From the NCBI GenBank assembly GCA_964629075.1, contig CAZVPL010000001.1, positions 39,016-103,015 on the forward strand: DNA of 64,000 nucleotides, given 5' to 3'. A program made the translations under genes and the position numbers. The notes under the pieces are model-generated. The model searched no databases. It was not told where the DNA came from and worked only from the letters and a program-made list of their open reading frames with translations. Position 1 is the first letter of the stretch, and every line of letters starts with the position of its first letter. The stretch is from an uncultured Bifidobacterium sp. (GTDB taxonomy: Bacteria; Actinomycetota; Acidimicrobiia; Acidimicrobiales; Ilumatobacteraceae). Below are positions 27,676-52,550 of this stretch, in pieces.

Positions 27676-27711
27676 GTAAGGGGCCACCGGACCTCGCTTG
27701 TCGGGAGGCGC

Positions 27712-28476: not shown

Positions 28477-28547
28477 GCCGAGACGCTAGTGGTGTCGTGC
28501 TGTGTGAACAAATGCGTCCGACTTGGGGTATCGGTATTGTGCATCGA

Positions 28548-36116: not shown

Positions 36117-36125
36117 GGGCGCAGA

Positions 36126-36527
36126 CTAGTTGTTCGGCTGCGGCAGCAATGTGAGCGGAACGATGGTCCACGGATCGCGATTCACCCGACAATGAGCGAA
36201 GACCTGTCCATAGTCGTCGAATTCCAACTCGCCTCGTACCAATCGATAGGTGAACTTTCCCGGATCGACGCGAAACGGACTGACGTTACGCGCCACCTGC
36301 TCGTCGTCTTCCTTCGGACCCTTGCGGAAGACCACCTCGAAGACGCCCTCGCCGGATTCAGTCGGCTCGCAGTAGATCAGCGCAACGAGGTGCGGCGAGA
36401 ACGTGAACGGAGGTTCCGACGGGGCCACCGTCGAGAAAAATGCGCCGGTGAGATCGATCCTCGTGCTCGGTCCCTCAACCTGACGCATCTCAAAATTGTC
36501 GACGAAAAGTGCGGAGACGAGATGCAC
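36126..36527 (-). CDS. hypothetical protein
   Basis: 133-aa ORF tightly packed between nagA (9 bp) and tkt (9 bp) on the same strand. No motif recognised. Confidence 0.55.
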   Translation of the reverse strand: MHLVSALFVDNFEMRQVEGPSTRIDLTGAFFSTVAPSEPPFTFSPHLVALIYCEPTESGEGVFEVVFRKGPKEDDEQVARNVSPFRVDPGKFTYRLVRGELEFDDYGQVFAHCRVNRDPWTIVPLTLLPQPNN

Positions 36528-36536
36528 GACTGCAGT

Positions 36537-37664
36537 CTAGGAGACGCGCTCGATTGGCACGCCAGCGGCGTACGTCAATTCAACTTCGAGTCGATCATCG
36601 AAACACGTGATATCCGCAAGTTGACCGACGGCGAGAGCGCCGATGTCCCGAGCTTCGATCAGTTCCGCCGGGGTGGACGTTGCAGAGACGAGGGCGTCGG
36701 CAAGGGGTACTCCGGCATGATTGACGACACGACGGATCTGTTCAGCAAGCGACAAGGCGGCTCCGGCAAGTGTCCCGTTCTTCAGCCGACCGGCATCGGT
36801 GACGGTGACCCCGTCGGTTGCAGCCACGGAGTCACTGACGAGGAACGTCTTGCCGGCACCTTTCGTTCGAAAGACGAGCCGAATCGTCTCGGCGTCGACG
36901 TGCACGAGATCGCCGATCAGGCCCGCGTACATCCCCGGGTCATCGAGAATCGCACCGGCAAGACCGAAGCCTCGGTGCTCGACACCGCTCATGGCATTGA
37001 AAATGTGGGTGCAGGAAACGGCCCCGGCGCTCACCGTCATCTCGTATTCCTGTCGCGTCGGAGCAGAGTGCCCGATCGATGCGACGATGTTTCGCGCGAC
37101 GAGCCGTTCCATCACCCGATCCGCGGCCGGTGACTCGGCAGCGAGTGTCATCATGCGGACACCTTCGCCGCAGCCCTCGAAGACGTCGTCGATGGTGTCC
37201 GGCGCCTCGGCGATGAGGTTCGTGTCGTGGGCTCCGGGACGACGACCAAGAAACGGCCCTTCGAGATGTATTCCGAGGATGCGAGTACTGCCGGGAGGAG
37301 TTGCCTTGGATGCCGCCACAATGATTGCGCAAGTTTGACTGCGTACCGATGGCTCACATGTCGGGATTGTCGGTAGAAACGCTGTTGTTCCCGCCGCCGC
37401 GAGCGAGCGCTGCAGGGCTGCCAAGGACTCCGGGGTTGCTCCGGTCACGGGAAAGTTGCCGAAGCCATTGCACTGGAGGTCGACCAAACCGGGGGAGACG
37501 AGAGGATGAATTCGGCGGGGGCGCTCGCTGCTGCCAAAGGTTCTCACCGAGTGGATGCGGTCGCCATCGATGTCGATGGCGACGTCATCACGAATGGTGC
37601 CATTGACGAGCGCACGCCGAGCATGGATCGTTCGACGGCGCTGAAACTCGTCAGGCTGCGGCAC
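36537..37664 (-). CDS. nagA: N-acetylglucosamine-6-phosphate deacetylase
   Basis: Amidohydrolase motifs PGLVDLQCNGF, GIHLEGPFL, IGHSAP, THIFNAM. Confidence 0.88.
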   Translation of the reverse strand: MPQPDEFQRRRTIHARRALVNGTIRDDVAIDIDGDRIHSVRTFGSSERPRRIHPLVSPGLVDLQCNGFGNFPVTGATPESLAALQRSLAAAGTTAFLPTIPTCEPSVRSQTCAIIVAASKATPPGSTRILGIHLEGPFLGRRPGAHDTNLIAEAPDTIDDVFEGCGEGVRMMTLAAESPAADRVMERLVARNIVASIGHSAPTRQEYEMTVSAGAVSCTHIFNAMSGVEHRGFGLAGAILDDPGMYAGLIGDLVHVDAETIRLVFRTKGAGKTFLVSDSVAATDGVTVTDAGRLKNGTLAGAALSLAEQIRRVVNHAGVPLADALVSATSTPAELIEARDIGALAVGQLADITCFDDRLEVELTYAAGVPIERVS

Positions 37665-38451
37665 GCCTCGATGGTATGACGAGCTTGACTTCGTTCAGAC
37701 GCACCCTTGCGAGGCGCAGCCAGGTGAGAACCTTGATGACCCACCAGCCGTAGTCGATTTCATACCAGCGGTGCGCCAGGCGCGCAGAGGTGGGCGCAGC
37801 GTGGTGATTGTTGTGCAGACCCTCCCCTGCGGTGAGGAAGGCGAGCCATTGGAGATTGCCCGCCCCATTGTCGTACGGACGTCGACCAAAGTGGTGTCCG
37901 ATCGCATTCACCGCCGCGGATCCGCCGAGATACAGATTCACATGGACCAAGGCGGCAGCGAGGCCCACCCACGCGCCGAACAAGAGGCAGAGTGAGGTGA
38001 TCCCGAGTGTGAGTCCGAGAATCGTGCGATCAAAGAGGAACCTGTCGAGTGCCGTAGCGGGCATGTCCTTGGCGTAACGGCCGAGGGTTGACGGATCACT
38101 TGCGCAACGCCGGTAGAGCGACACGTTCTTTGCCTGCACCGTCTTCCAACCAAGAAGTACCGGCGAATGGGGGTCGCCATCGACGTCCGTGAACGCGTGG
38201 TGTTTGCGATGGACGGCAACCCACTGCCGTGGGCGGATCCCCGTCGTGATCCAGACGACGAATCGGAAACCAACCGCAGCCGCGGGGGACAGACTGAGGG
38301 CGCGGTGGGACATCGCACGGTGGAGATACACCGTGGTCGCCACGTTTGCGACGACAGTGACCGTCAGCCCGATGACCAACGAAGCGAGAACGGTCCCGAC
38401 AACGGAATTTGGCGCGAAGAGAGCCGGCGCGAAGTTGAGGAAGGCAGACAT
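37651..38451 (-). CDS. membrane acyl-CoA/lipid desaturase (short delta-9-like)
   Basis: Three His boxes HRAMSH, HRKHH, HNNHH, plus TM segments. Confidence 0.85.
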   Translation of the reverse strand: MSAFLNFAPALFAPNSVVGTVLASLVIGLTVTVVANVATTVYLHRAMSHRALSLSPAAAVGFRFVVWITTGIRPRQWVAVHRKHHAFTDVDGDPHSPVLLGWKTVQAKNVSLYRRCASDPSTLGRYAKDMPATALDRFLFDRTILGLTLGITSLCLLFGAWVGLAAALVHVNLYLGGSAAVNAIGHHFGRRPYDNGAGNLQWLAFLTAGEGLHNNHHAAPTSARLAHRWYEIDYGWWVIKVLTWLRLARVRLNEVKLVIPSRRAAA

Positions 38452-38464
38452 GGTTACACCCTAA

Positions 38465-38486
38465 CTACCTACCGACCAGTAGGTAG
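38465..38486. promoter_or_regulatory. perfect 8-6-8 inverted repeat, candidate TetR operator in the desaturase/TetR divergent promoter
   Basis: CTACCTAC-cgacca-GTAGGTAG read directly. Located 14 bp from the desaturase start and 22 bp from the TetR start. Confidence 0.55.
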
Positions 38487-38507
38487 AACTCTCTGTAACC
38501 TTCGAGG

Positions 38508-39122
38508 GTGGCCAGCAAGCCGATGCGCGACCAAATCCTCGATGAAGCCACCGAGCTCTTCGCACGCCAGGGTTACGACGGGACGTCACTCAACGACATT
38601 GCGGCCGGGGTCGGCATCAAGCGCCCGAGTCTTTTGCATCATTTTCCGAGCAAGGATGCGCTCTACGGCGAAGTTTTCGAAAGGATGCTCTCGGAGTGGC
38701 TCGAGCGTGTCGAGAGCACGATCGCAACCCCCGGAACAGGTTGGGAGCGCTTCTCCGGGGTTCTCGCGTCGGGTTTCGACTTGTTCGTCGACAATCCGGC
38801 ATACGTGCGCCTGATGCGGCGAGAGGCGCTCGAGGGAGGTGACAGGCTCGGAATCGACCTGGTTGGAGTGGTGACGCCGCTCTTCGACGCCGCCGTCGAA
38901 TGGCTCGAGGGAGAAATGAGGGCGGGTCGTTTCCGCTCGGTCGACGCACGTCACATTCTCATCACTGCGTACGCATCTCTTCTCGGATATGTCTCCGACG
39001 CGCCGTTCATCAATGGACTGATGAACGATGACGCGCTCGCCCCTGCAACACTCGTCGCACGTCGCGGGCACATTCTCGACCTGTTCCACCGAGCGCTCGT
39101 ACCCGAAGGCGCTACCCCATGA
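38508..39122 (+). CDS. TetR family transcriptional regulator
   Basis: HTH LNDIAAGVGIKRPSLLHHFPSKDALY. GTG 38508 or ATG 38523. Confidence 0.9.
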   Translation: MASKPMRDQILDEATELFARQGYDGTSLNDIAAGVGIKRPSLLHHFPSKDALYGEVFERMLSEWLERVESTIATPGTGWERFSGVLASGFDLFVDNPAYVRLMRREALEGGDRLGIDLVGVVTPLFDAAVEWLEGEMRAGRFRSVDARHILITAYASLLGYVSDAPFINGLMNDDALAPATLVARRGHILDLFHRALVPEGATP

Positions 39123-39145
39123 GCGAGTCTCACTAGTCTCGGTTC

Positions 39146-41335
39146 GTGACCAGTCCAAACAATTCCCCGGTTAACTCGGGGAAGACATTGTCGGAACGCG
39201 AAAGCAAGTCTCTCCTCGCCGGCTTTGGCGTACCGTTCCTCCCCGAACTCGAACTCGAGCACCCCAACGAGGCAGCGGCGCTCACGTCGCTCATGTCGGC
39301 ACAGCGCCTGAGTTTTCCCGTTGTTGCAAAGCTGAACGGCGATCGAATTGCTCACAAGACAGAGCGTGGTCTTGTGAAGTTGAATCTCGCCGACGGCACC
39401 GCACTCACAGACGCAGTCGACTCGCTCTTCGCCGCGGCACGGCCCGAAGACGGACCAGTCTCGGTTCTCATCGCTCCGATGGTGAAGAGCAACCGAGAGT
39501 TCATCGCGGGATTGGTCCGCGACCCACAGTTCGGGCCGGTGGTCATGCTTGGTGTCGGGGGCGTGCTCGCAGAGGCGATAGCCGATGTCGTGTTCCGTCC
39601 TGTTCCCTTGGGCCCGGCGGATGCGAGCGAGATGATTTCCGAAATCAAGGCCCAGAAGCTGCTCGGAGAGTTCCGTGGCGGACCCGCGATTGATCGCGAA
39701 GCGCTGTCATCCGTCCTCCTCGGGCTGTCGAAGGCAGCCGTGGCGCGACCCGATGTGGCATCCATCGATGTCAACCCACTTCTCGTCGATGCAACGGGAG
39801 GCGTGGTTGCCGTCGATGCACTCGTCGAACTGGCCGACCAGGCGATCGAGGCTGCAACAGCGCCACGCACACCATGGTTGCGCGATGAACACTTTCGGGC
39901 GTTGTTCGAGCCTCGCGGCGTACTCGTTGCGGGTGCGTCGAGTCACCCCGGAAAGTTCGGATTCGTTTCGATGCACAACATCCTTGCGAGCGGTTACAAG
40001 GGACGCGTGGGTGGCACGAACTTGTCGGGAGAAGTCGTACTGGGAGTACAAACCGTGGCCTCCGTCGCTGATCTTCCGGAAGGTTTCGCCGACTTGGTCT
40101 TTGTCTGCACTCCGACTTCGGCCAATCCAGGGCTCCTGCGAGATTGCGCCGCTCGAGGCGTCAAGGCTGCATTTCTTACGTCGGCGGGCTACGGGGAGGC
40201 CGGTGAAGAGGGTCGTGCCCTCGAGGCCGACATCGTTGCACTCGCCGAAGAGCTCGACATTCTTCTCGCCGGCCCGAACGGTCAGGGTGTGGTCAGCACT
40301 CCCGCCGAACTGTGCGCCCAAATCGTTGCGCCATATCCGCCGCGCGGGCGCATCGGTGTCGCCAGCCAGAGCGGCAATTTTGTTTCATCGTTCCTGAACT
40401 ACGCGCGGTCCAGCGGAGTCGGCGTCAGCCGCGCAGTGTCGGCCGGCAACGCCGCGAGCGTGTCGGTCGCCGACTACCTCGGGTGGTACGCGACCGACCC
40501 CGAGACCTCCGTGGGGCTGGCCTACCTGGAAGGCATCTCCGATGGTCGGGCACTCATGGCTCAACTCGCTCATGTCGCCGAGCGCATGCCGCTTGTCGTC
40601 GTGAAGGGTGGCGCCACCGAGGCCGGAGCCAAGGCTGCCGCGAGTCATACGGGTGCTTTGGCGGCAAACGACAAGGTGTTCGATGGCGCCTGCAGAGCAG
40701 CCGGAATCGTTCGCGCCGCGACCGTGGAAGAAGCCTTCGACACAGCGGCCTGCTTTGCCACCCAGCCGCTTCCGCGCGGCGGTCGAACGGTCATCCTCAC
40801 GACGGCGGGAGGGTGGGGTGTCGTCACGTCCGACGCACTGTTCCAGCGCCCCGAACTCGAACTCATTCAGCTTCCCGAGGACTTGAAAGAATCGATCGAC
40901 GCCTTGTTGCCGCCGCGCTGGAGCAAAGGCAATCCGGTCGACTGTGCCGGAGGAGAAACCCGCGACACGATCCCCGAGGTGCTCGGACTGATCTCCCGGC
41001 ACGAGGCTGTCGATGCGGTGATTTATCTCGGCATCGGAATCCAGTCGAATCAGGCGCGCTTGATGCGCGAAGGGAACTTCTATCCCGACCATGGCTTGGA
41101 ACGCATCGTCTCCTACCACGAGCGACAAGACGCGCGTTTCGCCGAGGCAGCCGCCCAACTGTCGGCCGAAACCGCAAAGCCCATTCTCGTTGCCACCGAG
41201 CTTGCCATCGCTGATCCGGAGAATCCCGGGCCACGAACCGTTCGCGAAACGGGTCGGTATTGCTTCCCGACGGGCAACCGGGCGGTGGCGGCCCTGGCTC
41301 ACATGGTTCGCTACGCGAACCACCGACGTCGATGA
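39146..41335 (+). CDS. ADP-forming acetate/acyl-CoA ligase family protein (ATP-grasp, then CoA-binding and CoA-ligase domains)
   Basis: N-terminal ATP-grasp-like region (FPVVAKL...REFIAGLVRDPQFGPVVMLGVGG), then CoA-binding (GVLVAGASSHPGKFG) and the phospho-His loop ASHTGALA. GTG start. Confidence 0.8.
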   Translation: MTSPNNSPVNSGKTLSERESKSLLAGFGVPFLPELELEHPNEAAALTSLMSAQRLSFPVVAKLNGDRIAHKTERGLVKLNLADGTALTDAVDSLFAAARPEDGPVSVLIAPMVKSNREFIAGLVRDPQFGPVVMLGVGGVLAEAIADVVFRPVPLGPADASEMISEIKAQKLLGEFRGGPAIDREALSSVLLGLSKAAVARPDVASIDVNPLLVDATGGVVAVDALVELADQAIEAATAPRTPWLRDEHFRALFEPRGVLVAGASSHPGKFGFVSMHNILASGYKGRVGGTNLSGEVVLGVQTVASVADLPEGFADLVFVCTPTSANPGLLRDCAARGVKAAFLTSAGYGEAGEEGRALEADIVALAEELDILLAGPNGQGVVSTPAELCAQIVAPYPPRGRIGVASQSGNFVSSFLNYARSSGVGVSRAVSAGNAASVSVADYLGWYATDPETSVGLAYLEGISDGRALMAQLAHVAERMPLVVVKGGATEAGAKAAASHTGALAANDKVFDGACRAAGIVRAATVEEAFDTAACFATQPLPRGGRTVILTTAGGWGVVTSDALFQRPELELIQLPEDLKESIDALLPPRWSKGNPVDCAGGETRDTIPEVLGLISRHEAVDAVIYLGIGIQSNQARLMREGNFYPDHGLERIVSYHERQDARFAEAAAQLSAETAKPILVATELAIADPENPGPRTVRETGRYCFPTGNRAVAALAHMVRYANHRRR

Positions 41336-42783
41336 GTCGATCGAACGACAAAGCCGAGACCGCCGCGAAGGCGTCCAACAAACGTCGTCGTGCGCGGCGC
41401 CCCGGACGCCTCGTCGCCATTGTCGGCGCCGTTGGGGCGGCGCCTCTTGCGGCACTGTGGTTCGCTGGTCATTCACTCGCTACGCGCACCGAAGGTCGCA
41501 GCGCAGATCCGGTGTCGTATCTCGCGACACCGGTACTGAACGTTCGTCGCGCCGCAACGACGCTCGTCGGCGACATCGCCGCGAGAAATCTCCGTGCCGA
41601 ACTGGCATCGATCGTCGACCGAATGCCGTCGAACGCTTGCATCAGGATCGACGCTGGCGGGCGAGTGGTGCTGAGCAAATCCGCCGACAAGGCCCTCGTG
41701 CCCGCAAGCACGATGAAGATTGCAACCGCTGCCGTCGCACTCGATGTCCTGCCCGCCGACACGCGCTTCGTGACGCGAGTTCTGGGAACGGTCGACAACG
41801 GGATCGTGGGTGGAGACCTAACCCTCGTTGGAGGAGGAGATCCACTCCTTGTCAGTCGCGAATATCTGCCGACGGAGAAGTATCCGACGACGGACCCGAC
41901 TTATCTCGACGACTTGGCCGACAAGGTGAAGAGTGCCGGTGTCACCGCGGTTTCAGGTTCCGTGGTCGGTGATGAGTCATACCTCGATGATGATCGCTAC
42001 CTCGATGACTGGGCTTCGGGAATCCGAGGCACCGAAGGTGGCCCACTCGGCGCGTTGATGGTGAACGACGGCGTCGTCGTCGGAAATCCGATCAAGCCCG
42101 ACAATCCGGCCATCGCCGCCGCCGCAGAGTTCACCCGGCTCCTCGAAGCCCGCGGCATCGCGGTGGCAGGAGACCCAAAGGAGGCAAAGGGAGCCCCCGC
42201 AGGCGCAGCCATCGCCGAGATCCAGTCGAGCCCCCTCGTCAAGATCGTTGCGGAGATGTTGACCAACAGTGACAACAACACTGCCGAGGTGCTCGTGCGC
42301 CACCTCGGTCTCGCAAAGTCCCTGCAGCCAACGACGGCAGCGGGCCTGGCCGTCATCAGTCAAACGCTGGCGACGTGGGGCATCGACGGGGTCGTGGCGA
42401 AAGACGGATCGGGTTTGTCGCGGGGGAATCGAATCACGTGTGCGGCTCTTGTCGAGCTCTTGGAACGCGAGCCCGTGGGGGGAGAATTGAAGTCGGGTCT
42501 CGCCGTTGCAGCGCGCACAGGGACCCTGAGGGACGTCTTCGACGGAACCCCCGTTGCCGGGAAGCTTCTCGGCAAGACGGGAACGCTCCTTAACGTGAAG
42601 ACACTTGCCGGTGTCCTTCCGGTCGACAGCAAGGACGAAGTTCTCTTTGCGCTGTTGCTGAACGGCGCGGGCTGGGCCGACCAAGGCAACTACCGGCCGC
42701 TCTGGGAACAGCTCAGCACGGCACTCGCGACGTACCCAAAGGCTCCGACGCGGAGTCAGGTGGCGGTACTCGGAGCCGGCTGA
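41332..42783 (+). CDS. dacB: D-alanyl-D-alanine carboxypeptidase/endopeptidase (PBP4, S13 family)
   Basis: SxxK (PASTMK), SxN (NSDNN), KTG (GKTGTL). N-terminal basic region plus TM. ATGA overlap with the upstream gene. Confidence 0.88.
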   Translation: MSRSNDKAETAAKASNKRRRARRPGRLVAIVGAVGAAPLAALWFAGHSLATRTEGRSADPVSYLATPVLNVRRAATTLVGDIAARNLRAELASIVDRMPSNACIRIDAGGRVVLSKSADKALVPASTMKIATAAVALDVLPADTRFVTRVLGTVDNGIVGGDLTLVGGGDPLLVSREYLPTEKYPTTDPTYLDDLADKVKSAGVTAVSGSVVGDESYLDDDRYLDDWASGIRGTEGGPLGALMVNDGVVVGNPIKPDNPAIAAAAEFTRLLEARGIAVAGDPKEAKGAPAGAAIAEIQSSPLVKIVAEMLTNSDNNTAEVLVRHLGLAKSLQPTTAAGLAVISQTLATWGIDGVVAKDGSGLSRGNRITCAALVELLEREPVGGELKSGLAVAARTGTLRDVFDGTPVAGKLLGKTGTLLNVKTLAGVLPVDSKDEVLFALLLNGAGWADQGNYRPLWEQLSTALATYPKAPTRSQVAVLGAG

Positions 42784-42793
42784 CCCAGGCACG

Positions 42794-43156
42794 ATGCGGC
42801 CGAGTGCAATTCAGCCGGTTCGCTGCGAGAATCGTGTCGTGGCAAAGGACGACGCAAACCGCACGTCTCGCGAGCGTGATGGCGAACTTTTCGATCTCGT
42901 CGTCTCGTACGCGCGTCAGGAAACCATCGAACCGCTTCGCGGGGTCGGACGGTGGGTGGCGTTTGGTCTCATTTCGATGGGGCTCATTTCGGTCGGCATG
43001 GTCCTTGTTTCCCTTGGGCTACTCCGGGCGGTGCAAGACATCGGGGGAACCACCTTCGACGGCGCGTGGTCCTTCGTGCCCTACATCTTCGGCGTCGTGT
43101 TCGCTTCGGTGATCGTCGCCATCGCCATCAGTCAAATCAAACGTCCGCGGCTCTAG
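42794..43156 (+). CDS. small membrane protein (holin-X-like/phage-holin-family-like topology)
   Basis: Two TM helices (WVAFGLISMGLISVGMVLVSLGLL, VPYIFGVVFASVIVAIAI). Family call is tentative and the start is uncertain. Confidence 0.5.
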   Translation: MRPSAIQPVRCENRVVAKDDANRTSRERDGELFDLVVSYARQETIEPLRGVGRWVAFGLISMGLISVGMVLVSLGLLRAVQDIGGTTFDGAWSFVPYIFGVVFASVIVAIAISQIKRPRL

Positions 43157-43163
43157 GGAGAAC

Positions 43164-43382
43164 GTGATGCAGGAAAACGGTTCCGACAGGAAGATCTCGA
43201 AAGACGACCTCGAGCGGCGTTTCAAGGCGCTTCAGAACGATCTTCAGGGCACGGTCGAAAACAAGAAGCAGACGCTGCTCGCCATCGCAGGCGCAGGAGC
43301 AGCAGTGCTGATCATCGTGTCGTACCTCTTTGGCCGGCGACGCGGCACGCGCCGCGCCACGCGGGTGGAGTTCAGGCGCTGA
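43164..43382 (+). CDS. small C-terminally anchored membrane protein
   Basis: Charged helical N-terminus, single TM LLAIAGAGAAVLIIVSYLF, basic tail. 7 bp after the previous stop. Confidence 0.5.
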   Translation: MMQENGSDRKISKDDLERRFKALQNDLQGTVENKKQTLLAIAGAGAAVLIIVSYLFGRRRGTRRATRVEFRR

Positions 43383-43387
43383 CCGCA

Positions 43388-43609
43388 ATGGCATCCCGCC
43401 GTACCCGTCGAATCGGCTTTCTCGCGTCTCTCGTCATCGGCGGAACGCCGAAGCGCCGCAAAGTGTTCAACGCCATCGTTCGTCGTTCACGGTCGGTCAC
43501 CCGAGGTGTCATCATCGTTCGAATCGTCCGCCGCGCGCTGCGCGGGTCGACCCCGAGCCAGGTGTCCGTTCGCACTTCGCGGGCGGTCATCGACGTCGAG
43601 GGTCGCTGA
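43388..43609 (+). CDS. possible small, extremely Arg-rich protein
   Basis: ATG lies 5 nt after the previous stop, and the stop lies 5 nt before the trmI ATG. About three quarters of third positions are G/C by hand count, similar to prcA. No homology recognised. Confidence 0.35.
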   Translation: MASRRTRRIGFLASLVIGGTPKRRKVFNAIVRRSRSVTRGVIIVRIVRRALRGSTPSQVSVRTSRAVIDVEGR

Positions 43610-43614
43610 GAGCG

Positions 43615-44400
43615 ATGTTCGCTTTTGGTGACACGTTCGCCTTCGGCGAGAAGGTGATGCTCGTCGACCGCAAGGAACGTCGTTACCTCGTTGACCTCGC
43701 AGCCGGCGGGGAATTCCACAGTCATGCGGGATTCGTGTCCCACGACGACATCGTGGGCTGCCCCGACGGCGCCGAGGTTGTCTCGACAAAAGGCGCGCGC
43801 TACATCGTTCTGCGACCGACACTCGAGGATTTCGTCGTCGAGATGCCCCGTGGGGCACAAGTCATCTACCCCAAGGACCTGGCGACAATCCTCATGATCG
43901 GGGACATCCGTCCGGGCGTGCGTGTTCTCGAGTCGGGGATCGGTTCGGGGGCTTTGTCGATGGCCATGCTCCGCGCCGGTGCCGAGATCACCGGTTACGA
44001 ACTGCGCGAGGATTTTGCGAATCGCGCACGCGCAAACGTCAGGTCGTTTCTCGGCGAGTCCGCCCTCGCTTCTTACGACATACACATCCGTAACTGCTAC
44101 GACGGCATTGACGGATCCGACTTCGACCGAGTGATTCTCGACCTACCCGAACCTTGGCTCGTGGTCGACCATGCCGTGAACGCCCTGCGGCTGGGCGGCG
44201 TCTTGGTTGCCTACACGCCGGCGATCACTCAGGCCATGCAGGTGCGCGCCGCACTGGGTGACTACTGGAGCGGACAACGGACACTCGAGGTGCTGCACAG
44301 GACGTGGCACATCGACGGACAAGCTGTTCGTCCCGACCACCGTATGGTCGCCCACACCGGTTTTCTCACTGCCGCCCGCCTGGTGGGCAAACCCGATTGA
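43615..44400 (+). CDS. trmI: tRNA (adenine58-N1)-methyltransferase TrmI
   Basis: GEKVMLVDRKERRYLV...HSHAGFVSHDDIVG...QVIYPKD and SAM motif VLESGIGSGALS. Start at MFAFGD (ATG 43615). Confidence 0.88.
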   Translation: MFAFGDTFAFGEKVMLVDRKERRYLVDLAAGGEFHSHAGFVSHDDIVGCPDGAEVVSTKGARYIVLRPTLEDFVVEMPRGAQVIYPKDLATILMIGDIRPGVRVLESGIGSGALSMAMLRAGAEITGYELREDFANRARANVRSFLGESALASYDIHIRNCYDGIDGSDFDRVILDLPEPWLVVDHAVNALRLGGVLVAYTPAITQAMQVRAALGDYWSGQRTLEVLHRTWHIDGQAVRPDHRMVAHTGFLTAARLVGKPD

Positions 44401-44417
44401 AAGCCCCGAAGGGGTTT
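44401..44417. terminator. short GC hairpin between convergent trmI and ferredoxin genes (weak bidirectional terminator candidate)
   Basis: aaGCCCC-gaa-GGGGttt read directly. Short stem, triloop, and only a 3-nt T run. Confidence 0.3.
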
Positions 44418-44446
44418 AAGCAAACAAAGATCTCAGATCCGAACGA

Positions 44447-44692
44447 TCAGGGCTCGATGAAGATGCACTCGCCAGGGCACTCTTCGGCTGATTCAACGAC
44501 CGCATCAATCATGCTGTCGGGGAAACTCGCGAGACCCTCGGCACCTTGAGGGTTGCCCTTCGCCGTTGCGAAAATCTTGCTTCCCTCTTTCACGTATGCG
44601 AGCCCATCGTCGAGGAGGGTGAACACATCCGGCGCGATCTCTTCGCAGAGGCCATCGCCCGTGCACAGATCCTGATCGATCCAGACCTTCAT
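44447..44692 (-). CDS. single-cluster ferredoxin
   Basis: CTGDGLCEEIAP ... CPGECIFIE is the CxxDxxC...CP pattern of small 3Fe/4Fe ferredoxins. Confidence 0.85.
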   Translation of the reverse strand: MKVWIDQDLCTGDGLCEEIAPDVFTLLDDGLAYVKEGSKIFATAKGNPQGAEGLASFPDSMIDAVVESAEECPGECIFIEP

Positions 44693-44902
44693 TGACTGCT
44701 CCTTCGTCGCTCGTGTGAGTCGCTGATGTGAAAGCGAGACCGCCCGGGGACGAGCGATGACGCGCCATGACTCTACACAACCAGACCCCAGAGGTCACCT
44801 TTTGCACGGGACAACCACCACGTTCCTGCGGGGTGGTGGCGCGACGACGGGCCGGAGGTGATAGAGAGAAGCAAGGACATCTCGTCGTGTCGGAGGTACG
44901 GA

Positions 44903-46588
44903 ATGTCGGGTGGGCAGGCAGAAGAGAGCGGCCAGGACGCAGGGCGTGTGGCCCGTCTCGAAGCGCAGCTTCTCGAGACAAAGAGCCAATTGGCCCACAA
45001 GAACGCCCAGAACGAGAAGTTGTCGTACACCCTGCGCGAGGCGCGGGAACACATTGCCCAACTTCGCGAGGAAGTGGACAAGCTTTCGCAGCCACCGTCG
45101 GCCTACGGAGTCATCGTGGGCAAGAACGACGACGAGACGGTCGACATTCTCACCAGTGGCCGCAAGATGAGGGTTCATCTGCATCCGGACATCGATTTCG
45201 AGACCGTCGCCCGTGGGGCAGAGGTCGTGCTGAACGAGAGCCTCAACGTCGTGATGGCACGCTCACCCGAAGGGTCTGGGGAAGTCGTGTCCCTGAAGGA
45301 AATCTGCGATGACGGCGTGCGTGCGGTGGTCACAGTTCGCGGCGACGACGAAAGAATCTGTGAACTAGCCGACGCGCTGCGTGGTGCGCACCTGCGTTCC
45401 GGAGATCTACTGCGCCTCGACCCGCGCTCGAATCTTCTCCTTGAAAAGCTTCCCCAGCCCGATGTCGAAGACCTGCTCCTCGAAGAGGTTCCCGACATCG
45501 ACTACGCCGACATCGGTGGACTCGACTCACAGATCGAGCTCATCGCCGATGCCGTCGAACTTCCGTTCCTCTACGGCGACTTGTTCGCCGAGCATCGGCT
45601 GCCGGCTCCGAAGGGTGTTCTCCTCTACGGACCACCCGGCTGCGGCAAGACTCTCATCGCCAAGGCCGTCGCAAACAGCCTCGCAAAGAAGGTGGCCGCC
45701 AAACAGGGCGATGCAAAGGGGCGCAGCTACTTCATCAACGTGAAGGGCCCCGAGCTGCTGAACAAGTACGTCGGCGAGACCGAGCGCCAGATCCGCCTCA
45801 TCTTCCAACGGGCAAGAGAAAAGAGCGAAGAGGGCTGGCCCGTCATCGTCTTTTTCGACGAGATGGACTCGATGTTCCGAACCCGCGGCAGCGGAATCAG
45901 CAGCGACATGGAGTCCACAATCGTGCCCCAGCTTCTCGCAGAAATCGACGGCGTCGAGGGGTTGCGGAACGTCATAGTCATTGGCGCGACGAACCGGGAG
46001 GACCTCATTGATCCTGCGATTCTTCGGCCCGGACGCCTCGACGTGTAGATCACGATCGAGCGTGCGGCCCGCACGTCGGCCTCGCAGATTTTTTCGCGCT
46101 ACCTCACATCGGATCTTCCCCTCGACCTCACCCTGCCCGACACGGACGACTCCCGAGACGCGGACGAAGCAGTGAGAGCAATGATCGACGCCACGGTCGA
46201 GGCGATGTACAGCGACGACGATTCGAACCGCTTCCTCGAAGTCACCTACCAGAACGGCGACAAGGAAACCCTGTATTTCCGCGACTTTGCCTCCGGGGCC
46301 ATGATCGAGAACATCGTTCGCCGCGCGAAGAAGCTGGCCATCAAGCGCGTGATCGCCGGCGGGGAACGGGGCATCAGATTGAACGACCTCGTTGAATCCG
46401 TGCGTCAGGAATTCAAGGAGCACGAGGACCTTCCGAACACCACGAATCCCGACGATTGGGCACGTATCTCCGGCAAGAAGGGCGAACGCATCGTCTTCAT
46501 TCGCACCCTCGTCAACGAACACGCCGGGGACGCCTCGTCTCGCGGTGGCAAGGCGATCGAACGCACCGCCACCGGTCAGTACCTCTGA
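44903..46588 (+). pseudogene. arc: proteasome-associated AAA ATPase ARC/Mpa, reading frame interrupted by one in-frame TAG (46046-46048)
   Basis: Coiled-coil N-terminus, Walker A GPPGCGKT, Walker [25 protein letters not shown]. The downstream part (ORF track 46172-46588) is in the same frame and ends TGQYL. ORF-track fragments are 44858-46048 and 46172-46588. Start ATG 44903 is preceded by GGAGG. Confidence 0.85.
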
Positions 46589-46602
46589 GTCGCGGGCTAC
46601 AA

Positions 46603-48141
46603 ATGGCGATTCACAAGGTCTGCGGGATCGAAACCGAGTACGGCATCATCACGCGCGGTTTCGACGCGAACCCGGTTGTCGCGTCTTCGGTTCTTGTGAA
46701 CGCCTACGCCGGAAACTTTCCACAGTTGACCGGCTGGGACTTCGCCGACGAGACGCCCGGCAGCGACGCGCGCGGTTTTGCGCTAGAAGACGCATTTCCA
46801 CCCGAGGTCGAGACGCATCTCGTGAACAGTGTCCTCACGAACGGCGCACGTTATTACGTCGATCACGCCCATCCCGAGGTCTCAACGCCCGAGTGCACAA
46901 GTGCGGCTCAGGTCGTTCTGTTCGATCGCGCCGCCGAAGAGGTCATTCGCCGTAGCGCGCTGTCGGCGAACGAGAAGCTGCCACAGGGGCACGAGATCGT
47001 TCTTTACAAGAACAACTCGGACGGCAAGGGCAACTCCTACGGCTGCCATGAGAATTATCTCGTCGACAGGAACCTTCCATTTGGTCGTCTCGCGAGCCTC
47101 ATCACGACGCACTTCGTCACCCGCCAGGTGTTCACCGGCGCGGGCAAAGTGGGCTGTGAACAGCCGGGCCGATCCGCTGCCGCTGTTCCTTTTCAGATCA
47201 GTCAGCGAGCCGACTTTTTCGAGGAAGAAATCGGACTCGAGACGACGCTCAAGCGACCGATCGTCAACACACGCGACGAACCGCACTGCAACCCGAACCT
47301 GTACAGGCGCCTCCATGTCATCGTCGGCGACGCGAACATGAGCGAGGTTGCGACCTTTCTCAAAGTAGGAACGACTGCCATCGTCCTCGCGATGGTCGAA
47401 GACGACTTCCTGCCGCACAACCTTCAATTGTCGAACCCGCTGGCTGCCATCACGGCAGTCAGCCACGACCCGACTCTTCGGGCCACCGTCGAGCGGATCA
47501 ATGGCCAACGCCTGACCGCTCTCGAGATGCAGTTTCTCCTCTTGGAGTACGCCGAAAAATACAACCAACAATTCGGCCTCTCGTGCGTCGAGACCCCGGG
47601 CGAGGGGGGAGAAGCCGAATCGATTCTCCGGCGCTGGAAGACTGTGCTCGAAGGTCTCGAGACGAATCCCGATTCGGTCGCGGGCATCGTGGATTGGGTG
47701 GCCAAGAAGCGTCTCGTCGACGGATTTGCCGATCGCCATCACCTGACCCCGGGGCATGCCAAGTTGAAGGCGATCGACCTGCAGTATCACGACATGCGTC
47801 CCGACCGATGTTTGGCGGCACGCGTCGGCCTCGAGACATTGTGTGACGTCTCGGATGTTCAACGCGCCGTCAGCGAGCCGCCCGCGTCGACTCGGGCGTT
47901 TTTCCGTGGGAAGTGTCTGCAGAAGTGGCCGACCGAAGTGGTCGCAGCCAACTGGGACAGTCTCGTCTTCGACATCGGCGACGAACCCTTACGGCGCGTG
48001 CCGATGATGGAGCCGATGCGGGGTACACGTGCGATCGTCGGGGACCTCCTCGACGGTGCTTCGAGCCCGCGTCATCTGATCGAGATGCTCGGAGCCGGCG
48101 CCAGTGAGGCTTCGGGATTCATCGACCCGGGTATGTACTGA
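46603..48141 (+). CDS. dop: Pup deamidase/depupylase Dop
   Basis: [16 protein letters not shown]-terminus, carboxylate-amine ligase-like. Position between arc and pup. Confidence 0.92.
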   Translation: MAIHKVCGIETEYGIITRGFDANPVVASSVLVNAYAGNFPQLTGWDFADETPGSDARGFALEDAFPPEVETHLVNSVLTNGARYYVDHAHPEVSTPECTSAAQVVLFDRAAEEVIRRSALSANEKLPQGHEIVLYKNNSDGKGNSYGCHENYLVDRNLPFGRLASLITTHFVTRQVFTGAGKVGCEQPGRSAAAVPFQISQRADFFEEEIGLETTLKRPIVNTRDEPHCNPNLYRRLHVIVGDANMSEVATFLKVGTTAIVLAMVEDDFLPHNLQLSNPLAAITAVSHDPTLRATVERINGQRLTALEMQFLLLEYAEKYNQQFGLSCVETPGEGGEAESILRRWKTVLEGLETNPDSVAGIVDWVAKKRLVDGFADRHHLTPGHAKLKAIDLQYHDMRPDRCLAARVGLETLCDVSDVQRAVSEPPASTRAFFRGKCLQKWPTEVVAANWDSLVFDIGDEPLRRVPMMEPMRGTRAIVGDLLDGASSPRHLIEMLGAGASEASGFIDPGMY

Positions 48142-48169
48142 CCTCGGGATTTTTCGCTACGGTTGTTCC

Positions 48170-48370
48170 ATGGCCGAGCGCATACAGAAACATCGCACGG
48201 ACCGCGCCAAAGAAGACTCGGTTGGCGAGAGCGCGGCTCCCACCGCCGATACCGAGCGTGGCGAGAAGTTGAAGGCCGAACTCGACGATCTCCTGGACGA
48301 GATCGACGAGGTACTCGAGTCGAACGCCGAGGATTTCGTGAAGAGCTACGTCCAAAAGGGCGGTGAGTAG
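48170..48370 (+). CDS. pup: prokaryotic ubiquitin-like protein Pup (C-terminal GGE)
   Basis: 66 aa. KLKAELDDLLDEIDEVLESNAEDFVKSYVQKGGE. Immediately upstream of prcB. Confidence 0.93.
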   Translation: MAERIQKHRTDRAKEDSVGESAAPTADTERGEKLKAELDDLLDEIDEVLESNAEDFVKSYVQKGGE

Positions 48371-48376
48371 CGCACC

Positions 48377-49177
48377 ATGGCAATGCCGTTCTTCGCTCCC
48401 GGTGACAACCCGGGGGCAAGTTTTCTCGACCTTTTGCGGCGTACGGGTGTCGAACCTTTTGCCGCGGGTGATGCCGGGCGGGTCAGCGTCCCGCACGCGA
48501 CAACCTGCGTGGCGCTTCGTTTCGGCAGTGGAGTCGTCATGGCGGGCGACCGCAGGGCGACTTCGGGAAACTTGATCTCGCATCGCTCGATGGAAAAAGT
48601 GGTCGAGGCCGACCGTCTCAGCGGTGTCGCCATCGCCGGTGCTGCGGGGCCCGCGATGGAAATGATCAAGCTTTTCCAGCTGCAGCTCGAGCACTACGAG
48701 AAGGTGGAGGGCATGATGCTCTCCCTCGAGGGCAAGGCGAACCAGCTTTCGATGTTGGTTCGGGGCAACCTACCCGCGGCGATGCAGGGGATGGTCGTAG
48801 TACCGATCTTTGCGGGTTACGACACTGCTGCGGGGACAGGTCGTCTCTGGGACTACGACCCGACGGGCGGTCGGTACGAGGAAAAGGAATACGTGGCAAC
48901 CGGGTCGGGGAGCTTGCACGCCGGCACCGTCGTCAAAGTCGGTTGGCGATCCGACCTCAGCGAAGACGATGCGATCCGGTTGGCAGTCAAGGCGCTGTGG
49001 GAAGCAGCCGATGCCGATTCGGCAACCGGTGGGCCCGACGCACTGCGCGGGATCTACCCGGTCACGGCGACGATCACATCGAATGGTTGGGCGCGCGTCA
49101 ACGATGCGCGCCTCGCCTCAATCGTCGAAGAGCTGTTGGTCGAGCAGCGCGCGCGAAACGGAGGGGACCAGAGATGA
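48377..49177 (+). CDS. prcB: 20S proteasome beta subunit
   Basis: Propeptide followed by TTCVALRF (N-terminal Thr nucleophile), GDRRATSG. Confidence 0.93.
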   Translation: MAMPFFAPGDNPGASFLDLLRRTGVEPFAAGDAGRVSVPHATTCVALRFGSGVVMAGDRRATSGNLISHRSMEKVVEADRLSGVAIAGAAGPAMEMIKLFQLQLEHYEKVEGMMLSLEGKANQLSMLVRGNLPAAMQGMVVVPIFAGYDTAAGTGRLWDYDPTGGRYEEKEYVATGSGSLHAGTVVKVGWRSDLSEDDAIRLAVKALWEAADADSATGGPDALRGIYPVTATITSNGWARVNDARLASIVEELLVEQRARNGGDQR

Positions 49178-49854
49178 GCATGCCCTTCTACGTCGCACCC
49201 GAGCAGATAATGAAGGACCGTGCGGACTATGCCCGTAAAGGCATCGCCCGTGGTCGGGCTCTCGTCGCAATCCAGTACGACGCCGGCATCGCAATCGTCG
49301 CCGAGAACCCTTCCAACACCTTGCGAAAGGTGAGCGAGATCTACGACCGCATCGCCTTTGCCGGAGTCGGAAAGTACAACGAGTTCGACCAACTGCGCGT
49401 CGCCGGTGTTCGCGCCGCCGACCTGAAGGGGTACCAGTATTCGCGAGCCGACGTCGATGCCCGCAGCCTGGCCAACCAGTACGCGCAGATTCTCGGCCAA
49501 ACCTTCACCCACGAGATGAAACCTCTCGAGGTTGAAATCCTTGTCGCGGAGATCGGTGTCGACGCGGCACACGACCAGCTTTTCCACATCCTCTACGACG
49601 GCACGGTCCTCGACGAGAAGCGTTTCTCGGTCCTCGGAGGCGACGCGGATGCGATCGCCGGCAGGCTCACGCCCGATCTTTCCTCGACACCCGACCTTGC
49701 CGTAGCGATCAAAGTCGCCAGTCGTGCGCTGAGCGGACCCGATCGCACTCTCGTCGCTGACGACCTTGAGGTCGCAGTCTTGCGCCGCAACGGGGCAAGA
49801 CGTGCGTTTGCCCGTCTCGACGACGTCGAGGTCGAGCGCCTCCTCGCCAGCTGA
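49174..49854 (+). CDS. prcA: 20S proteasome alpha subunit
   Basis: [31 protein letters not shown] overlap with prcB. Confidence 0.93.
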
Positions 49855-49871
49855 CCGTCGGCGTCGTTCGC

Positions 49872-51230
49872 ATGGACCGTCGCATCTACGGAATCGAGAC
49901 CGAATACGGCATCACGTGCACTCTGCGCGGTCAGCGGCGACTCAGTCCGGACGAGGTGGCAAGGTATCTCTTTCGCAAGGTCGTCTCGTGGGGTCGCAGC
50001 AGCAATGTCTTTCTTGAAAACGGAGCGAGGCTCTATCTCGACGTCGGCTCGCATCCCGAGTACGCCACCCCCGAGTGCGACAACATCTACGACGTCGTCG
50101 TCCATGACAAGGCGGGCGAACGACGAATCGAGGACCTGACGTACTCCGCGGAGGAAAGACTGCGCGACGAGGGCATTCGGGGGACCGTCTACCTTTTCAA
50201 GAACAACACCGACAGCGCCGGCAACTCATACGGCTGTCACGAGAACTACCTGACGGCGCGTGACGATGATCAGGCGGCAATCGGCCAGATTCTGATTCCT
50301 TTTCTCGTGTCGCGCCAGGTCATATCCGGTGCCGGTCGAATAACACAAACAGCACGCGGCCCGGTGTATTCGATCTCGCAACGCGCAGACCACATTTGGG
50401 AGGGGATGAGTTCGGCCACAACGCGAAGTCGCCCCATCATCAACACGCGCGACGAGCCGCACGCCGATGCCGAGCACTACCGCCGCCTTCATGTCATCGT
50501 CGGCGATTCGAACATGAGCGAATACACCACTTTCCTCAAGGTCGGGTCCACAGCCTGCCTACTGAGGATGATGGAAGATCCGGCAGTGGTTCTTCGTGAC
50601 ATGACCCTGGAGAACCCAATCAGGGCAATCCGCGAGATCAGCCACGATCTGACGTGTCGGCGCACTGTTCGGCTCCAAAACGGAAGGGAGGTCAGCGCCC
50701 TCGACATTCAGCGCGAGTACCTCGACCGTGCGATCACGTACGCCGACAGAAAGGGTTTTCCCGAGTTCGAGCAGCGGGCCCTCGCGATGTGGGAGCACTG
50801 CGTCACCAAACTCGAGTCCGATCCCCTCGCGCTCGATCGTGAAATCGACTGGGTCATCAAGTACCGGTTGATCGAGCGTTACCGCGAACGCCACGGACTC
50901 GAACTCGGCGATGCCCAGACCCAGCTCGTCGACCTTCAGTATCACGACATCTGTCGCGATCGTGGCCTGTACTACAAGCTCGAATCGAAGGGTCTCGTCG
51001 AGCGAATCTGCAGTGAAGATGACATCACGCACGCGGTCGACAACGCACCGACCACGACACGCGCCCGTCTTCGCGGGGAATTCATCAAGCGCGCAAAGGC
51101 AAAGAAGCGCGACTACACGGTCGACTGGGTGCATCTGAAGTTGAACGATCAGGCACAACGCACCGTTTTGTGCAAGGACCCGTTCAAGAGTCGCGACGAG
51201 AGGGTCGAAAAGATCATCGAGTCGATGTGA
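49872..51230 (+). CDS. pafA: Pup--protein ligase PafA
   Basis: [36 protein letters not shown]. 452 aa, paralogous to Dop, downstream of prcA. Confidence 0.93.
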
Positions 51231-51862
51231 CGACGGGTAACCTCGCACGGGTGCGCGATGAATTACCCGGCGAAGGCTCCGTGTCCACGGGCAGCAGCCG
51301 GGGGACAGAGGCGTTCCGTGCGGTGCGCGACTGGGTGGTAGTGCTCGTCGTCGCTCTTCTCGTGGCACTTGGAATCCGTACGTTCGTGCTGCAGCAGTTC
51401 TACATATCTGGACCGTCCATGGAGACGACCCTTTTCCAGCCGAACCGCGTGCTCGTGAACAAGCTCTCCTACAAACTCGGTGACATCGGCCGTGGAGACG
51501 TGGTGGTTTTCGACCGCGTCACCTCGAATGGACGAAGCGTTCAGCACGACGACCTCATCAAACGGGTCATTGGATTGCCGGGTGAGTCGGTTTCGATCAA
51601 GGCTTGCGTGGTCCACATCGACGGGCAGATCCTGGAAGAGTCGTATCTTCCTGACCGTGACGTCTCCGAGACCGACCTTGTGGCGCGTTGTCGGCAACCC
51701 GAGATGGCCCCTGTGATCGTTCCCGACGGTCAGGTGTTCGTTCTCGGCGACAATCGGCCTCAATCAATGGATAGCCGCGTGTTTGGGCCGGTCGACAAGA
51801 AAAGCATCGTCGGTCGCGCATTCGTGGTGATCTGGCCGATCGGTCGTTGGCGTTGGCTGTGA
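51227..51862 (+). CDS. lepB: signal peptidase I
   Basis: TM anchor, catalytic Ser box SGPSMETTL, Lys box [21 protein letters not shown]. Start is GTG 51227 (GTGA overlap with the pafA stop) or GTG 51251. Confidence 0.85.
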
Positions 51863-51869
51863 CCCTTGA

Positions 51870-52550
51870 TCAGCCGCGCAGCGCCACATCGGCAAGCCTG
51901 TCGGGCCAGTCGCTGTAGACCGCGTCGACGCCCATTCTCACGACCTCGGCGATTTGTCGTTCGTGTTGACAGTCCCAGGCGAAACAGGCCAGATCGAAAC
52001 GTTTGAACAACGCAACGAGCCCTCCGCTCCAGTCGGGGTAGGGCATGTTCACGACACCTACCCGCGCCTCGCGAAGTTCGGCCGCATGTCGTTCGGGACC
52101 ACCCTTCATTCGCGCCAGACGCGTCGAGTGAACGAAATTGATGTCGGGAGACCCCGGGATCTCCCGACGGAGAACATCGAGATCGGGATGGCAGAGAAAC
52201 AAGAGCTTCGCTGCATGTGGCCGGTGCGCGAGGTAGGCATCCGTGACGGTCGAGAACGCCGACGGATCCTTGACGTCGAGCGAGAGGGGAACAGACACCG
52301 GGATCTCCGTGAGAAGTTCCTCGAGACGTGGGATGTGAGAGGGAAGGTCGGCACTGTGAACCGCGGCGATCGGCTTTGACTTGAAGCGACCCTTCACGAC
52401 TCCGTCGTGATCGAGCACGGCCACGCCATCGGCTGTGAGCCAGACGTCACTTTCCAGACCGTTTGCTCCGAGTTTGAGGGCCAGCGCGAACGCCTCGAGG
52501 GTGTTCTCGGGGGCATACGCCCGCGCACCTCGATGAGCAAACCCGATCAC
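51870..52550 (-). CDS. glycerophosphodiester phosphodiesterase
   Basis: [34 protein letters not shown]. Confidence 0.88.

What the first reader, a model, noticed from the sequence alone, without database searches (positions are those of the whole stretch)
46046..46048. In-frame TAG replacing a conserved lysine codon in the proteasome ATPase gene arc/mpa
The arc/mpa reading frame (44903-46588) is intact except for one TAG. The local translation is [16 protein letters not shown], whereas Mpa/ARC proteins, as I remember them, read RPGRLDV-K-IKIERP. A single AAG-to-TAG change explains it. The sequence after the stop stays in the same frame for 180 more codons. It still encodes a well-preserved C-terminal domain ending in the 20S-docking motif GQYL, so any inactivation is very recent. 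The alternatives are a sequencing error or local stop-codon readthrough or suppression. TAG is used as a normal terminator by pup, nagA and the M18 peptidase in this window, which argues against genome-wide reassignment. A truncated protein would keep the coiled coil, OB domains, Walker A/B and Arg finger. It would lose the helical lid and the proteasome-docking tail, uncoupling pupylation from degradation while dop, pup, prcBA and pafA all look intact.
Basis: partly seen in the sequence, partly recalled or inferred. Interest (0 to 1): 0.75.

Follow-up and report, generated by a model that had tools for sequence, protein, structure and literature searches.

The report
Stop codon inside proteasome ATPase gene
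The stop codon in the proteasome ATPase gene is real in this sequence, but it is one of four base changes packed into 23 bases and seen in no other record, so it is most likely an assembly or sequencing error, or failing that a fresh knock-out mutation, and not a recoded codon.

Summary
TAG at 46046-46048 interrupts an otherwise complete arc/mpa frame (44903-46588) at a lysine that is invariant in 120/120 homologues and 87/87 related loci.

The TAG is not a lone change. It is the first of four transversions within 23 nt:
- 46046 A>T, K382*
- 46053 A>C, K384T
- 46064 C>G, P388A
- 46068 A>C, D389A

Three of the replaced residues are invariant or K/R-only. The fourth (389) varies but is never Ala.

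The only same-species record is an ENA contig that is 99.4-100% identical over 17 kb. It reads AAG...AAG...CCG GAC and encodes an intact 561-aa protein. Outgroups show that all four states are derived in the window. Such clustering is not expected by chance (simulated P about 2e-4). The other window-derived changes nearby are isolated third-codon-position changes.

No donor template for the patch exists in the window. TAG terminates pup, an enoyl-CoA hydratase and a nagA-like gene normally. There is no tRNA in the window, no unusual RNA structure downstream of the stop, and no truncated product in a database of 5.8 billion protein clusters.

Verdict:
- Local consensus or assembly error, about 0.6.
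- One-step multi-nucleotide null mutation, about 0.35.
- Recoding or readthrough, about 0.02.

Interest is low.

The parts
44903..46588 (+). arc/mpa (proteasome-associated AAA ATPase) reading frame of 561 codons, interrupted at codon 382
   Evidence: Translation. TIGR03689 hits on both halves. Pfam OB-N at residues 68-127, OB-C at 128-184 and AAA from 239. E = 1.8e-198 to Mtb Mpa 7px9_A. Walker A at 45629-45652, Walker B at 45842-45868, RPGRLDV at 46025-46045, GQYL at 46574-46585.
46046..46048 (+). In-frame TAG at codon 382, in place of an invariant Lys (AAG in the closest relative)
   Evidence: Lys is present in 120/120 homologues and 87/87 loci.
46046..46068 (+). 23-nt patch holding four window-specific transversions: 46046 A>T (K382*), 46053 A>C (K384T), 46064 C>G (P388A), 46068 A>C (D389A)
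   Evidence: Comparison with the same-species contig L001. Outgroups L002-L007 all carry the L001 state. Clustering has simulated P = 1.7e-4. No donor copy exists in the window.
46049..46585 (+). Downstream 179 codons of arc: the end of the AAA core, the helical lid, the C-terminal domain and the GQYL tail. Not translated unless the TAG is bypassed.
   Evidence: TIGR03689 profile positions 360-511. Identical to intact L001 from 46069 onwards. The first in-frame restart codons are GTG 46172 and ATG 46181.
46603..48141 (+). dop (Pup deamidase/depupylase), intact, 512 aa
   Evidence: Same length and position as the Pup_ligase-family gene called in L001-L007. Translation.
48170..48370 (+). pup, 66 aa, ends ...QKGGE, terminated by TAG
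   Evidence: The PF05639 gene is at the same place in L002-L007.
48377..49177 (+). prcB (20S beta subunit), 266 aa, intact
   Evidence: Same length as in L002-L007.
49174..49854 (+). prcA (20S alpha subunit), 226 aa, intact
   Evidence: Same length as in L002-L007.
49872..51230 (+). pafA (Pup ligase), 452 aa, intact
   Evidence: The exact product is on record on the same-species ENA contig.

Best explanation
The TAG is part of a 23-nt patch (46046-46068) in which this assembly, and only this assembly, carries four transversions in an otherwise intact and strongly constrained arc/mpa gene. The most likely cause is technical: a local consensus, base-call or assembly error in a metagenome-derived contig. 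Examples would be a stretch supported by one or a few low-quality read ends, or a wrongly resolved bubble. On that reading the organism has a normal 561-aa ARC reading ...RPGRLDVKIKIERPD..., and the Pup-proteasome operon is fully functional.

What is shown: the patch exists, it is derived, it is statistically clustered, it is private to this record, and it hits conserved residues. What is inferred: that its origin is technical rather than mutational. The reads were not available.
For: 1. The only same-species record is L001 (ENA ERZ4209337 NODE_3685). It is 99.4-100% identical over window 34857-51870, has AAG/AAG/CCG/GAC at the four sites and encodes an intact 561-aa protein.

2. All four states are derived in the window. 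Outgroups L002, L003, L006 and L007 agree with L001.

3. Clustering: 4 of the 18 substitutions in 8873 nt fall within 23 nt, with simulated P = 1.7e-4. All four are transversions, against 3 transversions in the 14 other differences.

4. All four are non-synonymous. K382 is invariant in 120/120, position 384 is K or R in 120/120, P388 is invariant in 120/120, and position 389 is never Ala.

5. Only two other differences in the 11.7 kb with outgroups could be polarised as window-derived, 40177 and 45631 (four more are ambiguous). Both are at third codon positions, and 45631 is synonymous. The ARC protein is 96% identical to relatives whose DNA is only about 85% identical. So the lineage is under strong purifying selection apart from this patch.

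6. Sequence is identical to L001 for 258 nt upstream and 695 nt downstream of the patch.

7. No truncated product appears among the best 120 hits of the search of 5.8 billion protein clusters. The only 100%-identical hit is full length. Exact look-ups of the 381-aa and 396-aa products fail. Neither allele is found in the genome or JGI metagenome pattern scans.

8. Literature: many internal-stop 'pseudogenes' in bacterial assemblies are assembly errors that depend on coverage (PMC11017572).

9. Clustered transversion differences also occur in the independent low-coverage assembly of this species, for example 26561/26565 and 37869/37895/37920. This shows that such patches arise in data of this kind.
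Against: - No reads, coverage or quality values are available, so error is inferred and not shown.
- The window shows no other sign of poor consensus. There are no indels against L001 or L088 over 21.5 kb apart from gaps in those contigs, and no other derived cluster.
- A 64-kb contig suggests reasonable coverage, which makes a four-error patch less expected.
- The comparison rests on a single same-species contig of about 3x coverage.
- A real multi-nucleotide mutation would look identical in the consensus.
Confidence: 0.6

Rival explanations
1. The patch is a real, very recent null allele. One multi-nucleotide mutational event changed four bases within 23 nt and created K382* together with three missense changes. 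An example would be an error-prone translesion-synthesis patch across damaged DNA. The lineage would make a 381-residue ARC fragment. That fragment lacks the last core strand, the lid, the C-terminal domain and the GQYL docking tail, so pupylation would be uncoupled from ARC-dependent unfolding and degradation.
For: The sequence as given contains the changes. The rest of the window agrees cleanly with the independent contigs, with no indels. The absence of any decay downstream fits a very recent event, because the window and L001 differ by only about 0.2%. mpa is dispensable for growth in culture in mycobacteria (my own knowledge, not tested here).
Against: A four-substitution cluster is a rare class of real mutation. 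It would have to reach consensus frequency in a gene kept at 96% protein identity across 15% DNA divergence. The allele is seen nowhere else. If the TAG had come first, later neutral changes would be scattered and not packed into 23 nt. No mutational template was found.
Confidence: 0.35
2. The TAG is decoded, by programmed readthrough, a suppressor tRNA or pyrrolysine-type recoding, so that full-length ARC is made.
For: The downstream frame is open and intact to GQYL. The stop replaces a Lys, and pyrrolysine is a lysine derivative. That is a resemblance only.
Against: The same-species contig has AAG, and all 87 related loci have AAG or AAA, so the stop is not conserved. TAG terminates pup, a complete enoyl-CoA hydratase (Pfam model 2-250 of 251), the nagA-like gene and hyp133 at the same ends as in relatives. 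There is no tRNA in the window. No other TAG-split gene was found among the candidates tested. The RNA downstream folds no better than shuffles, z = 0.10. The three neighbouring changes would still be present in any readthrough product: two at invariant or K/R-only residues and one giving Ala where it is never seen.
Confidence: 0.02
3. The patch was copied from a template: gene conversion from a paralogue or a foreign arc allele, a diversity-generating retroelement, or a short template switch at a quasi-palindrome.
For: Three of the four changes are at adenines, which resembles a retroelement signature. 46064 C>G turns CGTCCGG..CCGCACG into a perfect 7-bp inverted repeat, CGTGCGG/CCGCACG. Template switching is known to generate mutation clusters (PMC5453318).
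Against: No segment on either strand of the 64-kb window matches the derived patch better than chance. The best match is 19 of 27 positions. No 14-mer spans the first two changes, and the best matches across the last two are 11 of 12, which is chance level. None of 120 homologues or 87 loci carries the derived residues, so no natural allele could be the donor. The quasi-palindrome accounts for one of the four changes only. The gain in hairpin stability is small: -16.8 against -14.5 kcal/mol as DNA.
Confidence: 0.03

Closest known systems
Mpa/ARC, the proteasome-associated AAA ATPase of Actinobacteria (TIGR03689; M. tuberculosis Mpa, PDB 7px9, 5kwa, 5kzf)
   Same: Full-length collinear homology (E = 1.8e-198). 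Coiled-coil and double-OB N-terminus, Walker A and B, RPGR motif and C-terminal GQYL. The operon order is arc-dop-pup-prcB-prcA-pafA.
   Different: The reading frame is broken at codon 382. Residues 384, 388 and 389 differ from the family consensus KIKIERP[DNTS].
Spurious internal-stop 'pseudogenes' produced by assembly or sequencing error (Cooley & Wright 2024, PMC11017572)
   Same: An internal stop in an otherwise perfect, conserved gene. A near-identical genome has the intact gene. The source is a metagenome-type assembly.
   Different: Here the stop comes with three neighbouring substitutions. The source reads could not be inspected, so the attribution is inferential.
Multi-nucleotide mutation clusters, including short template-switch events (PMC5453318)
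   Same: Several substitutions within about 20 nt arising as one event.
   Different: No template was found for the patch. At most one of the four changes fits quasi-palindrome correction.
Programmed UAG recoding (pyrrolysine or suppressor-tRNA readthrough)
   Same: An in-frame UAG with an intact downstream frame.
   Different: The stop is not conserved even within the species. UAG is a normal terminator in the same window. No tRNA or stimulatory structure was found.

Membership tests
Proteasome-associated ATPase ARC/Mpa (TIGR03689) | Scores above the curated equivalog cut-off | tested here: met
   The N-terminal 381 aa alone score 547.7 bits against a cut-off of 504.75. The C-terminal 179 aa add 175.2 bits on profile positions 360-511.
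Proteasome-associated ATPase ARC/Mpa (TIGR03689) | Double OB-fold interdomain followed by one AAA module with Walker A and B and the RPGR arginine motif | tested here: met
   PF17758 at residues 68-127, PF16450 at 128-184, PF00004 from 239. GPPGCGKT at 243-250, VIVFFDEMD at 314-322, RPGRLDV at 375-381.
Proteasome-associated ATPase ARC/Mpa (TIGR03689) | C-terminal 20S-docking motif GQYL | tested here: met
   It is encoded at 46574-46585 in the same frame, but lies downstream of the TAG.
Proteasome-associated ATPase ARC/Mpa (TIGR03689) | Genomic association with dop, pup, prcBA and pafA | tested here: met
   The order arc-dop-pup-prcB-prcA-pafA is the same as in L001-L007.
Proteasome-associated ATPase ARC/Mpa (TIGR03689) | Uninterrupted reading frame with the conserved strand VKIKIERP | tested here: not met
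   The window reads V*ITIERAA. The consensus is VKI[KR]IERP in 120/120 homologues.
Programmed stop-codon recoding (Pyl or suppression/readthrough) | The in-frame stop is conserved in orthologues or close relatives | tested here: not met
   AAG in the same-species contig L001. AAG or AAA in all 87 related loci.
Programmed stop-codon recoding (Pyl or suppression/readthrough) | UAG is rare or avoided as a terminator, or other genes carry in-frame UAG | tested here: not met
   TAG ends 13 of 55 long ORFs with coding-like composition (some of them antisense). These include pup, the nagA-like gene and a complete ECH_1 enoyl-CoA hydratase. No other TAG-split gene was found among the candidates.
Programmed stop-codon recoding (Pyl or suppression/readthrough) | A cognate tRNA(CUA) or pyl genes, or a stimulatory RNA structure downstream | tested here: inconclusive
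   There is no tRNA in the 64-kb window, and the downstream fold has z = 0.10. The rest of the genome is not available.
Decaying pseudogene | Several independent lesions, or relaxed constraint spread along the gene | tested here: not met
   Outside the 23-nt patch, the only differences from L001 within arc are four synonymous third-position changes. There are no frameshifts.
Diversity-generating retroelement or gene-conversion target | A template or donor repeat matching the variable patch | tested here: not met
   No donor on either strand of the window. The best ungapped match is 19 of 27 positions.
Assembly or sequencing artefact | The variant is unsupported, or supported only by low-quality or low-coverage reads | not testable with these tools

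The most novel reading that the evidence does not exclude
The UAG at codon 382 is bypassed in vivo by readthrough or a suppressor tRNA. An Ilumatobacteraceae lineage would then make full-length ARC with an altered last core strand (X-I-T-I-E-R-A-A). This would be a strain-specific recoding or tuning of the proteasomal unfoldase. A less exotic variant is a natural arc-null lineage in which an intact pupylation system and 20S proteasome are uncoupled from the unfoldase.
Probability: 0.02. Interest if true: 0.6.

Novelty: not a real feature. Interest (0 to 1): 0.1.

Why it matters
If the stop were real and tolerated, it would mark a free-living actinobacterial lineage that keeps Pup, Dop, PafA and the 20S proteasome but has just lost the unfoldase that links them. 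That would be a natural experiment on degradation-independent pupylation.

The evidence points instead to a private 23-nt lesion of the kind assemblies produce. The practical value is therefore cautionary. An in-frame stop in a MAG should be read together with its immediate neighbours and with the nearest-strain sequence before recoding or gene loss is invoked.

Tried and rejected
1. Other records with the TAG allele. Exact look-ups of the 381-aa and 396-aa truncated products found nothing on record. A homology search with the N-terminal fragment found no truncated near-identical protein. IUPAC pattern scans for either allele gave 0 hits in genome contigs and 0 hits twice in JGI metagenome contigs.

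2. The window's own source contig. Exact look-ups of Dop, an 884-aa protein and IMPDH found nothing on record. PafA returned only the ENA contig already in hand.

3. Donor template, gene conversion, retroelement or template switch. The k-mer and ungapped scans of both strands gave only chance-level matches.

4. Methylation-motif-linked systematic error. The two A changes sit at different positions of two AAGATC sites. The other 12 AAGATC/GATCTT sites and the roughly 120 GATC sites in the compared region are unchanged. Rejected.

5. Other TAG-interrupted genes in the window. A scan for stops flanked by at least 100 open codons on each side was noisy. Pfam on the best TAG candidates showed separate, complete genes.

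6. A readthrough-stimulating structure downstream of the TAG. The fold is no better than shuffles.

7. TypA-based relatives L089-L095 turned out to be only about 78% identical in DNA. They were of no use for a strain-level comparison.

Full report
**Observation**

The window carries TAG at 46046-46048, in the frame that opens at ATG 44903 and closes at TGA 46586-46588. There are 381 sense codons before the stop and 179 after it.

The frame is the proteasome-associated AAA ATPase ARC/Mpa:
- The N-terminal 381 residues alone exceed the curated TIGR03689 cut-off (547.7 against 504.75 bits). The C-terminal 179 residues match profile positions 360-511.
- Pfam finds the two OB domains (residues 68-127 and 128-184) and the AAA core from residue 239.
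- The whole frame aligns collinearly with M. tuberculosis Mpa (7px9_A, E = 1.8e-198). The stop lies opposite the first Lys of RPGRLDV-K-IKIERP.
- Walker A, Walker B, RPGR and the terminal GQYL are all present.

That Lys is present in 120/120 of the best database homologues and in all 87 related genomic loci, mostly as AAG with a few AAA.

**What else is there**

The organism belongs to an uncultured Ilumatobacteraceae (Acidimicrobiia) lineage known only from MAGs.

One public contig is from the same species: ENA ERZ4209337 NODE_3685 (L001, coverage 2.9). It is 99.4-100% identical to window 34857-51870 and encodes an intact 561-aa ARC (P0001).

Within arc the two sequences differ at eight positions. 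Four are synonymous third-position changes: 45631, 45640, 45715 and 45787. The other four lie within 23 nt:

| Position | Change | Effect |
|---|---|---|
| 46046 | A>T | K382* |
| 46053 | A>C | K384T |
| 46064 | C>G | P388A |
| 46068 | A>C | D389A |

The window reads V*ITIERAA, where L001 and six contigs of a sister species read VKIKIERPD. Outgroups show that all four states are derived in the window.

Only two other differences in the 11.7 kb with outgroups could be polarised as window-derived, 40177 and 45631 (four more are ambiguous). Both are at third codon positions, and 45631 is synonymous.

Placing 18 substitutions at random in 8873 nt gives four within 23 nt with probability 1.7e-4. 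All four are transversions, whereas 11 of the 14 other differences in that block are transitions.

The residues that were replaced are conserved. K382 and P388 are invariant, position 384 is K or R, and position 389 is D, N, T or S and never A.

Flanking sequence is identical to L001 for 258 nt upstream and 695 nt downstream. The whole of the gene after the patch is identical to the intact gene.

**What it is not**

Recoding is not supported:
- The stop is absent from the same-species contig and from every relative.
- TAG terminates pup, the nagA-like gene, the 133-aa gene next to it and a complete enoyl-CoA hydratase, at the same ends as in relatives.
- No tRNA lies in the window.
- The best candidates for other TAG-split genes proved to be separate, complete genes.
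- The RNA downstream of the stop folds no better than shuffled sequence, z = 0.10.
- Any readthrough product would still carry K384T, P388A and D389A.

A templated origin is not supported either. This covers gene conversion, a diversity-generating retroelement and template switching:
- No segment of either strand of the window matches the derived patch above chance.
- None of the homologues carries the derived residues.
- Only 46064 C>G can be read as quasi-palindrome correction, giving CGTGCGG/CCGCACG.

A methylation-motif-linked systematic error was also considered and rejected. The two changed adenines occupy different positions of two AAGATC sites, and the other such sites are unchanged.

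Gradual pseudogene decay is excluded by the absence of any other lesion.

**What it most likely is**

Two readings remain, and the consensus sequence alone cannot separate them.

(a) A technical error patch, confidence about 0.6. In its favour:
- The four-change haplotype is private to this assembly.
- All four changes are non-synonymous; three hit invariant or K/R-only residues. ARC here stays 96% identical in protein across about 15% DNA divergence.
- Its spectrum and its clustering differ from the background differences.
- No truncated product appears among the best 120 hits of the search of 5.8 billion protein clusters.
- Internal-stop 'pseudogenes' in bacterial assemblies are frequently coverage-dependent artefacts (PMC11017572).
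- Clusters of transversion differences also appear in the independent 3x assembly of the same species. This shows that such patches arise in data of this kind.

(b) A real, very recent one-step multi-nucleotide null mutation, confidence about 0.35. In its favour:
- The window is otherwise clean. It shows no indels and no other derived cluster against 21.5 kb of same-species sequence.
- The contig is long, which suggests adequate coverage.

Consequence if the stop is real (inference from the domain map and from established knowledge of Mpa). The 381-residue product would keep the coiled coil, the OB domains, Walker A and B and RPGR. It would lose the final strand of the AAA core (Pfam AAA reaches residue 386 in the intact protein), the helical lid, the C-terminal domain and the GQYL docking tail. 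It would therefore be expected to be inactive as an unfoldase. Meanwhile dop, pup (ending in GGE), prcB, prcA and pafA are intact.

The gene identity, the Lys-to-stop change, normal TAG usage elsewhere and the 'error or very recent' framing are all correct. The claim that a single change explains the difference is incomplete. The 0.75 interest rested on a recoding or uncoupling scenario that the nearest-strain comparison does not support.

**Verdict**

This is an ordinary finding. It is a private 23-nt lesion in a MAG-type sequence, probably an artefact and otherwise a trivial fresh knock-out. The read pile-up over 46020-46090 would settle which.

Noticed in passing
L001 (ENA ERZ4209337 NODE_3685) and L088 (NODE_26247) against window 24384-29017 and 34857-51870: The roughly 3x-coverage ENA contigs differ from the window mostly by G or C where the window has T or A (for example 26561, 26565, 27201, 35245, 35319, 37869, 37895, 37920, 39266, 39483, 39526). 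They also contain 10-N scaffold gaps opposite window 39421-39435 and 39984-40035. This looks like G-biased low-coverage error in that assembly and not variation in the window.
   Followed up: partly
window 48904-48937 (prcB) against L001 about 14001: L001 lacks 34 nt of prcB that the window and the sister-species contigs have. This shifts the frame, so that prcB, prcA and pup are called with odd lengths (275, 224 and 88 aa) in L001. The window's prcB (266 aa) is the normal one.
   Followed up: partly
window 48170-48370 (pup) and 46603-48141 (dop): Pup ends ...QKGGE. A C-terminal Glu is ready for ligation and needs no deamidation. Yet a full-length dop is retained, presumably as a depupylase.
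   Followed up: no
window 44903-46588 against L002-L007: The ARC protein is 96% identical (99% over the first 381 residues) to contigs whose DNA is only about 85% identical. Purifying selection is very strong, and the C-terminal third is the more variable part.
   Followed up: partly
window 46061-46075: The derived sequence CGTGCGG-C-CCGCACG is a perfect 7-bp inverted repeat. The ancestral sequence has one mismatch (CGTCCGG-A-CCGCACG, within the palindrome GTCCGGAC). The change at 46064 removes that mismatch. The effect on fold energy is small.
   Followed up: yes
L089 (GCA_018970175.1) and other NCBI records: Some MAG proteins of this Acidimicrobiia lineage are labelled 'Acidobacteria bacterium' in NCBI, for example TypA P0122 and ARC P0013. 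Some GTDB-set MAG titles read 'Bifidobacterium breve' or 'Ferrithrix thermotolerans'. These are probably taxonomic mislabels in the source records.
   Followed up: no
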